A stretch of DNA of 64,000 nucleotides from Eledone cirrhosa (GCA_964016885.1 OZ024745.1:8184001-8248000), one strand, 5' to 3'; positions 25,536-28,051 are shown, counted from the first letter of the stretch. The notes: generated by a model not told the origin, from the letters alone. A program made the numbers and translations.

Positions 25536-25571
25536 ATTATTATTATTATTATTATTACTATTATTATTATT
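25536..25571. repeat. (ATT)n tract
   Basis: Read directly. Confidence 0.95.
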
Positions 25572-25642
25572 TCCGGGGTCGATAGAATAAAGTACCAGTA
25601 ATGCATTGGGTAATTGCTGGCCTTGTGCCAAAAGTAGAAACA
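25572..25642 (+). mobile_element. 5'-truncated SINE (family 1, 3' part)
   Basis: cggggtcgatagaataaagtaccagtaat...ttgctggccttgtgccaaaagtagaaaca closely matches 29160-29230, with (ATT)n on both sides. Confidence 0.85.
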
Positions 25643-25680
<38 letters not shown>

Positions 25681-25693
25681 GATTATTGTTATT
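25643..25693. repeat. (ATT)n tract shared as tail by the + strand SINE and the - strand E2
   Basis: Lies between the SINE 3' end and the E2 3' UTR. Confidence 0.95.
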
Positions 25694-26640
25694 CCTTGAA
25701 TCTCAGTCATTGATGTTGGTTAACTGGAAAGTCCGTTGGATTGAATATCAAGCCACTACCTGCAGCCTCAGATATTCAGGACGTATCGGAGGGTTCTTGC
25801 TGTTCCAAGCAAGCATGCCTTTTGAAGCGTTCCAAAAAGCGTTAAGGGGCCGATTTTCTTTAACCATCCCTGGAAACTTTTGGAGATAGTCCCCAGTGCG
25901 CCTATGACAATCGGGATCACTTTGACTTCATGGCAGTTCCAAATCCTTTTCACCTCCCACTTTAGGTCCTGGTATCGGTTAATTTTCTCCCTCTCCTTCT
26001 CTTGCACTCTCGTGTCGAACGGGCAGCCCACATCCACAATCAGACACGATCTTTTTTCTTTGTCCACAACCACCAGGTCAGGTCTATTGTGTTCCAGTTT
26101 CTTGTCCGTCTGTATCCTAAAATCCCACAGCACCTTCACCTGATTGTTCTCCATCACCGCCTCTGGCCTATGCTCATACCATTTCTCAGAATGTGGTAAA
26201 TTGTTCACTTTGCACAGGTGCCAGTGGATCACCCTGCCCATCACATCGTGTCTCCAGCCCTTATAGTGGGTCTGGGCTAGGTGTTTACACTCGGACACAA
26301 TGTGAGCCACAGTCCCCTCTCTCTCTCCACAGATCCTGCACAGTGGGCTAGCCTCCTCCTTGTAAATATGGTGCTTCAACCACTTCGTTTTGAGGGCCTG
26401 CTCCTGCGCAGCCATTAGCATTCCTTCTGTAGCCTTTTTGAGGTCTCCTCTTCTCAACCAGTTCCATGTCTGTGGATCTCTAAATTCAGTTTTCTCAAAG
26501 AAGGTACTATGAAGGGATTTTCCCTTAAGGCTGCTCTTCCTCCTTGATGTTATTTCCTCCTTGGACATCCCCTGGCCTACTGTCCCCTCCTTCAGTACAG
26601 TTCTGAGCATTGGCTCCTTACTATAGGTCACGTATTTGTA
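25694..26640 (-). mobile_element. E2: 5'-truncated Dong-like element, same family as E1
   Basis: Colinear with E1 21215-22145 including the 3' UTR. (ATT)n on both sides. Confidence 0.93.
25768..26640 (-). pseudogene. Uninterrupted C-terminal fragment of the E2 polyprotein (linker, CCHC knuckle, PD-(D/E)xK endonuclease)
   Basis: CRICGEREGTVAHIVSEC, WRHD, HNRPDLVVVDKEKRSCLIVDVGCPFD, EKINRYQDL, PIVIGALG. No stops in about 290 codons. RT is absent. Confidence 0.88.

Positions 26641-26700
<60 letters not shown>
26641..26700. repeat. (ATT)20; tail of E3 and 5' flank of E2
   Basis: Perfect repeat between the two elements. Confidence 0.97.
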
Positions 26701-26702
<2 letters not shown>

Positions 26703-28008
26703 AGTTGCATTTATCTTGCTTTATGTTCGTACGAGTTATCACCAAGTCACAACCAGTGACCTCAAGAGACAACAAGGTCCGCCATGTTCAAGAAAGAACA
26801 TACATACTCACACATGCATCTTTAGTGTTTAGACTTGTGATGTACTTATATTGACAGAATCTTCCTTAGTATATGGGCAGTTCCCATTAGTACAATCTTT
26901 TGTATTTCTCCTATACGCGGGTTTCCTGGGATTTGCGATAAGTAATCATTAGACCCCTTAGGTATCATTCCCAGAGCGCCTACAACCACTGGTATTGTTT
27001 TAGTTCTCAATTTCCACATTTTTCCAATTTCTATCTCCAGGTCCTTATACTTGCTCAATTTTTCAAATGTTTTTATAGATACATTCTTGTCTATTGGAAC
27101 AGACATATCAATTAGCAGGCATACCCTCTTTTTAAAGTCCTTCAATATTATATCAGGTCTATTTGCATCTATTTTTCGGTCTGTTTGGATGCTAAAGTTC
27201 CACAAGATTGAGATGTGATCTATTCCTTGCAATCAATTCCGTTCTTAAGATTGCTCCTACTCTGCGGTAACATTCCTTCCTTATCCTTTCCCTCATTGTC
27301 GAGTGCTTGATTCCGTCTCCTTCACAAACACCTAGATATTTGTAAGTTTTTTCTTGATCAAGTTCTCTTATCACGTTCCCCCGATCAAGATTAATGTCTG
27401 AACTCTTCAGCAGCTTTCCTCTGGTGAACGTTGCTTTGGCGCATTTGTCTAGTCCAAACTCCATTTTAATGTCATCACTGAACTGCTCCACAGTGGATAA
27501 TAGCCCTTGCAATTGTTCATCATTTTTTGCAAATAGTTTCAGGTCATCCATGTAGAACAAGTGATTAATGGTTTTGTCATAGACTTTATATCCATGTTTT
27601 GTTTCATTGAGCATTTTACTTAATGGTATAAGTGCGATGCAGAATAAAAGCGGTGATAAAGAATCACCCTGAAAAATTCCACAATTAATATTAACTTCTC
27701 CAGCTTCCAATGATTTTGTTTCACTATTCAAAAGGAGTGTCGTTTTCCATGTCTTCATACTGAATGACAAAAACCTCCCGACAACGGGGAATATTTTGAA
27801 AATCTCTAAACATTTTTCAATCCAACTGTGTGGCAAACTATCGAATGCTTTTTTATAATCTATCCAAGCAATCGATAGATTTTTGTGTCTATTATGACAA
27901 TCTTCCAGTATCATTTTGTTAACCAGAAGCTGATCCTTACAGCCATATGAGCCTCGTTTACACCCTTTCTGCTCAATGGGAAATAGGTCATTTGTTGTCA
28001 GGTGGTCA
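26701..28008 (-). mobile_element. E3: 5'-truncated, internally deleted R4/Dong-like element of a second family
   Basis: [69 protein letters not shown]...LIDMSVP...EKLSKYKDL...PVVVGALG. Stop at 26846-26848, ~145-bp 3' UTR, (ATT)n on both sides. The protein is clearly diverged from E1/E2. Confidence 0.92.
26846..28008 (-). pseudogene. E3 polyprotein remnant; RT fused out of frame to the endonuclease
   Basis: The RT frame (27192-27914, extending upstream) leaves homology after [10 protein letters not shown]. The RLE frame (26846-27232) gains homology at about ISILWNF. Linker and CCHC knuckle are missing. Confidence 0.88.

Positions 28009-28051
<43 letters not shown>
28009..28051. repeat. (ATT)n tract, 5' flank of E3
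   Basis: Read directly. Confidence 0.96.

What the first reader, a model, noticed from the sequence alone, without database searches (positions are those of the whole stretch)
25536..28051. A self-feeding (ATT)n landing pad shared by a SINE and two RLE retrotransposon families from opposite strands
Seen: (ATT)n - SINE(+) - (ATT)n - E2(-) - (ATT)20 - E3(-) - (ATT)n, with no other DNA between. The 25643-25693 tract is both the SINE tail (ATT on its sense strand) and the E2 tail (TAA on its sense strand). The 26641-26700 tract is both the E3 tail and the E2 5' flank. The same SINE family ends in ATT at 29231 and 30298. Established: Dong-type elements target TAA repeats. Inference: one microsatellite was split by three insertions, each leaving reusable target. 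The SINE has opposite tail polarity and a long TSD elsewhere, so it probably uses a different (APE-type) LINE yet seeds targets for Dong-like elements. This would be a SINE-microsatellite-LINE niche-construction loop building head-to-tail trains, analogous to telomeric retrotransposon arrays.
Basis: partly seen in the sequence, partly recalled or inferred. Interest (0 to 1): 0.75.

Follow-up and report, generated by a model that had tools for sequence, protein, structure and literature searches.

The report
Retrotransposon train; SINE is a passenger
Four jumping genes sit end to end in one ATT repeat here; across this genome the long jumping genes stack next to each other in such repeats and likely keep renewing them, while the short SINE element brings no repeat tail of its own and is not found next to them more often than chance.

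Summary
The layout is real, and longer than reported. The DNA left of the first tract is the 5' end of a third Dong-like copy (E1), so the train is four insertions in one (ATT)n/(TAA)n tract, 21156-28051. The SINE part of the reading fails. The SINE has no ATT tail: the ATT after it starts its target-site duplication (29231 is one). 94 of 111 randomly sampled copies are followed by two ATT units or fewer. SINE-Dong tail-to-tail joins are not enriched (7 of 53 versus 9 of 72; 3 of 99 on contig C1). What is enriched is LINE-LINE stacking: Dong-Dong head-to-tail (22 of 53 versus 3 of 72) and Dong tail-to-tail with a young L1/Tx1-like APE LINE that uses the same repeat from the other strand (20 of 128, expected 3-4%). 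That LINE shares a 3' hairpin with the SINE and is its likely mobiliser. Long pure tracts are mostly LINE-flanked (24 of 30), so a self-feeding loop is likely, but among LINEs. It is not telomeric. This scan has reported the Dong/Tx1 system before at other places in this genome. New variant of a known kind.

The parts
21156..21223 (.). (TTA)n tract at the 3' end of E1; left end of the train
21224..25532 (-). E1: near full-length Dong/R4-like RLE LINE, family A, older and frameshifted; lacks about 62 nt of the 5' end
   Evidence: intact relative L126 (1141 aa)
25536..25571 (.). (ATT)n tract between the E1 5' end and the SINE piece
25572..25642 (+). 3' ~70 bp of a very abundant ~190-bp SINE, 5'-truncated, ATT tract on both sides
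25643..25693 (.). (ATT)n tract between the SINE end and the E2 3' end (tail-to-tail join)
25694..26640 (-). E2: 5'-truncated family A copy (last 947 bp; open frame with CCHC-like and PD-(D/E)xK-like motifs), 98.9% to its closest copies
26641..26700 (.). pure (ATT)20 between the E2 5' end and the E3 3' end (head-to-tail join)
26702..28009 (-). E3: 5'-truncated family B Dong/R4-like copy with an internal deletion of about 840 bp
   Evidence: intact relative L181 (1204 aa, 35% identical to family A)
28010..28051 (.). (ATT)14 at the E3 5' end; right end of the train
29020..29249 (+). full-length copy of the same SINE with a 19-bp target-site duplication (29020-29038 and 29231-29249) and no tail of its own
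30179..30309 (+). related, more diverged SINE subfamily ending in (ATT)4; shares only the central core

Best explanation
The locus is one (ATT)n/(TAA)n microsatellite holding three Dong/R4-like retrotransposon copies and one SINE fragment, likely built by successive insertions that each left repeat on both sides. Dong-like families A and B read TAA on their sense strand; a young L1/Tx1-like LINE with an APE endonuclease sits in the same repeat from the other strand. These long elements likely renew, and probably lengthen, the long pure tracts that they use, so they stack into polar trains. The SINE is likely moved by the Tx1-like enzyme with a relaxed target (ATTAT). It has no repeat tail, lands in tracts in proportion to their ATTAT content, and is a passenger rather than the source of targets. 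E1 is likely the oldest insertion; the order of the other three is not resolved.
For: Shown. SINE ends: 91 of 111 random copies are followed by ATTAT (background 0.25% per position), 94 of 111 by two units or fewer, 63 of 111 have an 8-25 bp duplication starting at the end. In L042, L048 and L057 the sequence after the end is not ATTAT and matches the 5' duplicate. 8 of 111 lie in perfect tracts versus 9.6% of ATTAT sites (p=0.52). SINE copies sit inside the Dong 3' UTR with a duplication in L022 and L028/L029. Neighbour across the tract, 53 Dong tails versus 72 random tracts: Dong 22 vs 3 (p=3e-7), SINE 7 vs 9 (p=1.0), Tx1-like 11 vs 9 (p=0.23; 11 of 31 vs 9 of 69, p=0.015, once Dong-occupied sides are removed). 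Coordinate lists on C1: a Dong tail faces 3 of 100 SINE tracts but 18 of 74 Tx1-like tracts (p=2e-5); Dong-Dong within 5.5 kb, 36 same-orientation vs 0 opposite among 176; Tx1-Tx1 15 vs 2 among 100. Full-length 5' ends lie in tracts in 27 of 27 Tx1-like rows (about 24 distinct places) and 10 of 11 Dong rows. 24 of 30 pure tracts of 11+ units touch a Dong or Tx1-like end, none a SINE only. LINE-flanked tracts have a median of 10 units, SINE-only 6, unflanked 5. The two flanks sum to a median of 35 units for 14 full-length Tx1-like copies and 27 for 50 truncated Dong copies, while the longest of 29 unoccupied random tracts has 15. The SINE and Tx1-like 3' ends share a 3-4 bp hairpin with the same 5-nt loop and a 12-13 nt spacer; shuffle p=0.0005-0.003 for two Tx1-like subfamilies. 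Inferred: insertion order, net repeat gain, and SINE mobilisation by the Tx1-like enzyme.
Against: With Dong-occupied sides removed, SINE-Dong is 7 of 31 vs 9 of 69 (OR 1.9, p=0.25), so a modest enrichment is not excluded. In 6 of 16 SINE-Dong tail-to-tail cases the SINE lacks a clear 5' tract, so Dong may sometimes have used a SINE's short ATTATT. 15 of 65 truncated Dong alignments lack a 5' tract; several are internal-deletion joins. Only 1 of 7 Dong tails in the random sample is followed by a Dong. The SINE end matches the youngest Tx1-like subfamily only weakly (p=0.036 and 0.069) and Dong family B nominally (p=0.016 and 0.037). Long flanks could reflect a steep preference for long tracts or later slippage rather than gain at insertion. 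The pattern favours one tract-end phase and its loci are clustered. No empty allele was seen.
Confidence: 0.72

Rival explanations
1. One reading: the SINE adds (ATT)n tails and so creates new targets for Dong-like elements.
For: 14,031 exact SINE ends are followed by four or more ATT units. In 6 of 16 tail-to-tail cases the SINE has no clear 5' tract. Each SINE insertion duplicates a short ATTAT-starting site.
Against: No tail beyond the duplication; tract use matches ATTAT abundance; no SINE-Dong enrichment; SINE-only tracts are as short as unflanked ones; 0 of 30 long tracts are SINE-only.
Confidence: 0.08
2. No net feeding: long tracts arise by ordinary slippage, both LINE types strongly prefer the longest tracts, and trains are repeated hits on rare hot tracts in tolerant regions.
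For: Dong-tail tracts are longer than baseline (median 10 vs 7); 5 of 30 long tracts had no element from my library on either side; Dong tails cluster along C1.
Against: Flank sums of 27-35 units exceed every one of 29 unoccupied random tracts (maximum 15; length-biased mean 9); enrichment persists for tracts of 7+ units (21 of 40 vs 3 of 38).
Confidence: 0.13
3. Trains are copied as units (read-through and 3' transduction, or template jumping), or arise by recombination or mis-assembly.
For: Nine family A copies start near position 795-800; L017 and L018 share a long-copy-plus-151-bp-copy structure; L264 has a family B tail joined to family A at almost E2's start.
Against: L264 lacks E3's deletion, and that deletion join occurs only at this locus among the fetched loci; most other starts are scattered and joins show slight microhomology (mean 1.33 vs 0.88 nt, p=0.025, n=33); opposite-strand Tx1-Dong joins are hard to get from one sense transcript; the same layout is common genome-wide. 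No read spanned the tracts, so assembly was not checked directly.
Confidence: 0.07

Closest known systems
Dong (Bombyx mori), DongAg, DongBg; R4 lineage (PMC3812793 and PMC3774820, passages read)
   Same: TAA-repeat target; single ORF with RT; RT nearer to R2 than to L1 among solved structures. Dong-R4 is listed as recently active in Octopus vulgaris (PMC13282606, passages read).
   Different: Two families only 35% identical share the tract and a homologous ~350-nt 5' end (74%); no HDV-like ribozyme was detected; no named reference was available for a tree.
TRAS1 and SART1 in (TTAGG)n of Bombyx mori (PMC7265360, passages read)
   Same: Two LINE types insert into one simple repeat in opposite directions.
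   Different: Here the repeat is interstitial (ATT)n and the two types carry different endonuclease classes (RLE-like versus APE); TRAS and SART are both APE elements (recalled).
Kibi, Koshi, crocodilian Tx1 families, and the SINEU / Tx1-Mar pair (PMC4494074, passages read)
   Same: Tx1-clade LINEs specific for microsatellites; SINEs inferred to be moved by a Tx1 family, some with weaker target preference, and tandem copies around a duplication.
   Different: Targets listed there are (TC)n, (TTC)n, (TTCC)n, (TTTC)n or transposons. An (ATT)n target shared with Dong was not found in my searches; Repbase and Kojima and Fujiwara 2004 could not be read.
Alu and L1 tails as sources of microsatellites (PMC3812793, passages read)
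   Same: Retroelement ends are tied to microsatellite birth.
   Different: This SINE brings no tail; its ATT is target-derived.

Membership tests
Dong / R4 clade (E1, E2, E3) | single ORF with non-LTR RT and no APE domain | tested here: met
   RVT_1 and no endonuclease family in the window pieces; intact 1141-aa and 1204-aa ORFs in L126 and L181; the 120 listed homologues carry RVT_1, some also zf-RVT
Dong / R4 clade (E1, E2, E3) | C-terminal CCHC knuckle and PD-(D/E)xK restriction-like endonuclease | tested here: met
   motifs seen by eye in the translations (motif definition recalled); weak zf-RVT hit; no solved-structure hit for the C-terminal 255 aa
Dong / R4 clade (E1, E2, E3) | insertion into (TAA)n, TAA on the sense strand at both ends | tested here: met
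   10 of 11 full-length 5' ends; 50 of 65 truncated alignments; 3' tracts
Dong / R4 clade (E1, E2, E3) | 5' HDV-like self-cleaving ribozyme (reported for Bombyx Dong, PMC3774820) | tested here: inconclusive
   no Rfam hit in L103 or L091; only a weak hairpin in 9 aligned 5' ends
Dong / R4 clade (E1, E2, E3) | RT phylogeny grouping with named Dong/R4 elements | not testable with these tools
   no named Dong or R4 protein among the hits; R2 is the best solved relative
L1/Tx1 clade (candidate partner LINE, L111-L125) | ORF1 plus ORF2 with APE endonuclease, RT and C-terminal zinc motif; L1-like | tested here: met
   Exo_endo_phos, RVT_1, zf-RVT; human L1 ORF2p best solved relative, E=3e-50 versus 8e-22 for R2; two ORFs in 5.9 kb
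L1/Tx1 clade (candidate partner LINE, L111-L125) | target-sequence preference | tested here: met
   tracts at both ends of 14 of 14 full-length copies; 5,140 exact ends followed by four or more ATT units
L1/Tx1 clade (candidate partner LINE, L111-L125) | RT phylogeny grouping with named Tx1 elements | not testable with these tools
   no named Tx1 among 27 hits; the label Tx1-like rests on architecture and recalled motifs
tRNA-derived SINE | tRNA-related head | tested here: inconclusive
   no ARAGORN call in the window; no Rfam tRNA hit in L031
tRNA-derived SINE | short, non-coding, dispersed, with variable target-site duplications | tested here: met
   about 190 bp, 111 ends in 1.19 Mb, duplications of 8-25 bp in 63 of 111
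tRNA-derived SINE | 3' end shared with a partner LINE | tested here: inconclusive
   shared hairpin and spacer with Tx1-like ends; similarity is short, and Dong family B also scored nominally
telomeric retrotransposon arrays | location at chromosome ends or in telomeric repeats | tested here: not met
   window at 8.18-8.25 Mb of a 134.7-Mb contig; thousands of dispersed copies

The most novel reading that the evidence does not exclude
Two unrelated endonuclease classes build a shared niche: each insertion of a Dong-like (RLE) or Tx1-like (APE) LINE leaves more ATT repeat than it used, so the two families, entering from opposite strands, manufacture most long (ATT)n microsatellites of this genome and feed each other's targets, while the SINE rides the Tx1-like enzyme with a relaxed five-base target.
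Probability: 0.45. Interest if true: 0.65.

Novelty: new variant of a known kind. Interest (0 to 1): 0.42.

Why it matters
It gives a countable case of retrotransposons renewing their own landing sites outside telomeres and rDNA, and of an RLE and an APE element converging on one repeat from opposite strands. If repeat is gained at insertion, it would explain where most long ATT microsatellites in this genome come from. The LINE/SINE pair would also let one separate enzyme-set from RNA-set target choice, because the LINE sits in long tracts and its likely passenger in any ATTAT. The SINE-seeding idea itself is not supported.

Tried and rejected
Empty or partial alleles: contigs of X4, X1, X2, X8 and raw reads or contigs of X10, X11, X12, X7 did not span the tracts, and the tool skipped the repeats. 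X4 contigs match the outer flanks without differences (20780-21147, 28175-28590, 28603-28840), but no allele state could be read. A direct whole-genome count of SINE-Dong joins was not obtained; the counts rest on 1.19 Mb of evenly spaced sample, search hits, and listed coordinates for the first 52-69 Mb of C1. The nominal depletion of SINE-Dong joins (3 of 99 versus 7-12% genome-wide) is not claimed: only 6 of the first 100 tract edges on C1 are SINE ends (lists), so the local expectation is lower. Ribozyme search at the Dong 5' end: nothing. Protein searches gave no named Dong or Tx1. CR1 and Dong family A were rejected as SINE partners by 3'-end comparison (p=0.63-0.99); RTE ends were not compared. 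The first tally (14 of 99 SINE, 43 of 99 Dong) mixed in loci fetched for other elements and was replaced by index-only counts (53 of 57 index loci; 4 had tracts too short or interrupted to score). The original Dong paper (PMC309301) is not held. Literature searches returned nothing.

Full report
1. Observation. The four tracts and three elements are at the stated places with nothing between them. Several details differ. The SINE piece is the last ~70 bp of a ~190-bp element. The DNA left of 25536 is the 5' UTR of E1, a near full-length, frameshifted member of E2's family spanning 21224-25532 and lacking about 62 nt at its 5' end. On the minus strand the train reads tract, E3, tract, E2, tract, SINE (antisense), tract, E1, tract, over 21156-28051. 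The left outer flank had no match among the fetched loci and the right flank only one short match besides this locus. At 29231 the ATT starts a 19-bp duplication also present at 29020-29038. The element ending at 30298 is a related subfamily with a different 3' end. E3 has an internal deletion of about 840 bp seen only at this locus among the fetched loci.

2. What the long elements are. The window lies on contig C5 of a 3.0-Gb genome, 8.2 Mb into 134.7 Mb. An octopus-like host is my inference from the repeat content; Dong-R4 and L1-Tx1 are listed as recently active in Octopus vulgaris (PMC13282606, passages). Intact relatives exist for family A (E1, E2; L126, 1141 aa) and family B (E3; L181, 1204 aa), 35% identical. 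Both have RT and C-terminal CCHC-like and PD-(D/E)xK-like motifs (by eye; motif definition recalled); Pfam found no APE family in the window pieces, and R2 is the nearest solved relative of family A. Exact 3'-end motifs occur 5,511 and 2,867 times. TAA tracts lie at 10 of 11 full-length 5' ends and 50 of 65 truncated alignments. Dong elements are reported to target TAA repeats (PMC3812793, passages) and to belong to the R4 lineage (PMC3774820, passages). Clade membership by tree could not be tested.

3. The SINE has no tail. In 30 best-matching copies, the end is followed by ATTAT in 26; in three of the four exceptions the different sequence is matched by the 5' duplicate. In 119 evenly spaced 10-kb stretches, 111 ends were found: 91 are followed by ATTAT, 94 by two units or fewer, and 63 have an 8-25 bp duplication. 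Of 14 with four or more units by a tolerant count, 9 also have a run on the 5' side; 5 do not. Eight of 111 are followed by a perfect tract, against 9.6% of all ATTAT sites (p=0.52). The SINE therefore uses ATTAT wherever it occurs. It has also landed inside the Dong 3' UTR with a duplication (L022, L028/L029).

4. Adjacency tests. For 53 of 57 index Dong tails with a scorable tract, the far side was Dong in 22, Tx1-like in 11, this SINE in 7, an older SINE in 1 and nothing recognised in 12. For 72 random tracts without a Dong tail the counts were 3, 9, 9, 6 and 38, plus 7 others. SINE: p=1.0 (p=0.25 after removing Dong-occupied sides). Dong: p=3e-7. Intersecting listed coordinates on C1 (all 100 listed places for family A, SINE and Tx1-like, and 76 of 100 for family B, those within range) gave SINE-Dong 3 of 99 Dong tails and Tx1-Dong 20 of 128 (expected 2.6-4.3%). 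A Dong tail faced 3 of 100 SINE tracts and 18 of 74 Tx1-like tracts. Dong-Dong neighbours within 5.5 kb were 36 in the same orientation and 0 opposite among 176. Against this, only 1 of 7 Dong tails in the random sample was followed by a Dong, and in 6 of 16 SINE-Dong cases the SINE lacks a clear 5' tract.

5. The opposite-strand LINE. An antisense element that often follows Dong tails is a young 5.9-kb LINE with two ORFs, APE, RT and zf-RVT domains and human L1 ORF2p as best solved relative. All 14 scorable full-length copies of 15 fetched have ATT tracts on both sides, and 5,140 exact ends are followed by four or more units. Its 3' end and the SINE's share a short hairpin with the same loop, different but still pairing stems, and a 12-13 nt spacer to the ATT. 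Similarity is significant for two subfamilies (p=0.0005-0.003), weak for the youngest (0.036, 0.069), nominal for Dong B (0.016, 0.037) and absent for CR1 and Dong A. A Tx1-moved SINE with weaker target preference has a precedent (PMC4494074, passages). Partnership is inferred, not shown.

6. Mechanism. Shown: both LINE types sit in tracts with fixed, opposite polarity and stack; the SINE sits at ATTAT with a duplication. Inferred: each insertion nicks the repeat and leaves repeat on both sides. Net gain is suggested by flank sums (medians 35 and 27 units) far above unoccupied tracts (maximum 15 of 29), by longer LINE-flanked tracts, and by 24 of 30 long pure tracts touching a LINE end (15 on both sides), with a known phase bias and clustering. 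Strong length preference or later slippage remain possible. E1 is likely first, being frameshifted and at most 95.8% identical to other copies over 1 kb or more (97.6% over one 708-bp match), while E2 and E3 reach about 99%. The SINE has tract on both sides, so it entered an existing tract. Reads gave no allele information.

7. Known systems and novelty. The closest geometry is TRAS1 and SART1, which insert into telomeric repeats in opposite directions (PMC7265360, passages). Microsatellite-specific Tx1 families and TAA-specific Dong are each known. An (ATT)n-specific Tx1-like family sharing the Dong target was not found in searches; Repbase, Kojima and Fujiwara 2004 and supplements were not seen and may already note it. 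Passages of PMC9115989, PMC8967140, PMC4758252 and PMC3747384 confirm these families in octopus or the SINE-LINE tail principle; the passages read did not describe the arrangement. Earlier notes of this scan describe the same Dong/Tx1 system at other places in this genome; I read them after reaching this view and they are not independent support. Verdict: real feature, SINE-seeding not supported, LINE-LINE loop likely; new variant of a known kind; interest 0.42.

Noticed in passing
L134, L136, L143, L156, L186, L221, L233 and L193 (random sample): Related L1/Tx1-like families (45-66% protein identity to the ATT family) end with a similar hairpin but are followed by (TATC)n, and one by (CTAA)n-like repeats: a likely radiation of microsatellite targets.
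   Followed up: partly
L181:1028-1380 and 5732-6100: Dong-like families A and B are 35% identical in protein but share about 350 nt of 5' end at 74%; no ribozyme was detected.
   Followed up: partly
L017, L018, L019, L021, L022, L023, L026, L028: A recurring ~151-bp 3' fragment of family A starts at nearly the same base after a TAA tract; in L017 and L018 it follows a longer copy. It may be a truncation hot spot or a co-copied unit.
   Followed up: partly
window 1-15582 and 33696-63998: Two large satellites (40-bp and 39-bp units) enclose an 18-kb island that holds the train.
   Followed up: no
L146:3366-3696, L192, L230, L235, L290: A CR1-like LINE also ends at ATT tracts in the SINE/Tx1 polarity (4 of 79 random tracts); it could be a further source or user of tracts.
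   Followed up: no
L179:7465-7590, L178, L011, L295: An unclassified repeat end abuts ATT tracts in the Dong polarity; no protein match was found in the stretch tested.
   Followed up: partly
L004, L013, L102, L246, L266, L276: Some Dong-adjacent tracts change from (AAT)n to (AAG)n or (GAT)n, and two truncated copies have (GAA)n at the 5' join.
   Followed up: no
window 31857-31994 and 32723-32873 (-): Two more diverged SINE-like copies (71-74% to the 29040 copy).
   Followed up: no
L033, L034, L043, L051, L057, L038, L060: SINE copies often sit directly after the 3' end of an older SINE, as expected if each end re-creates the ATTAT target.
   Followed up: no
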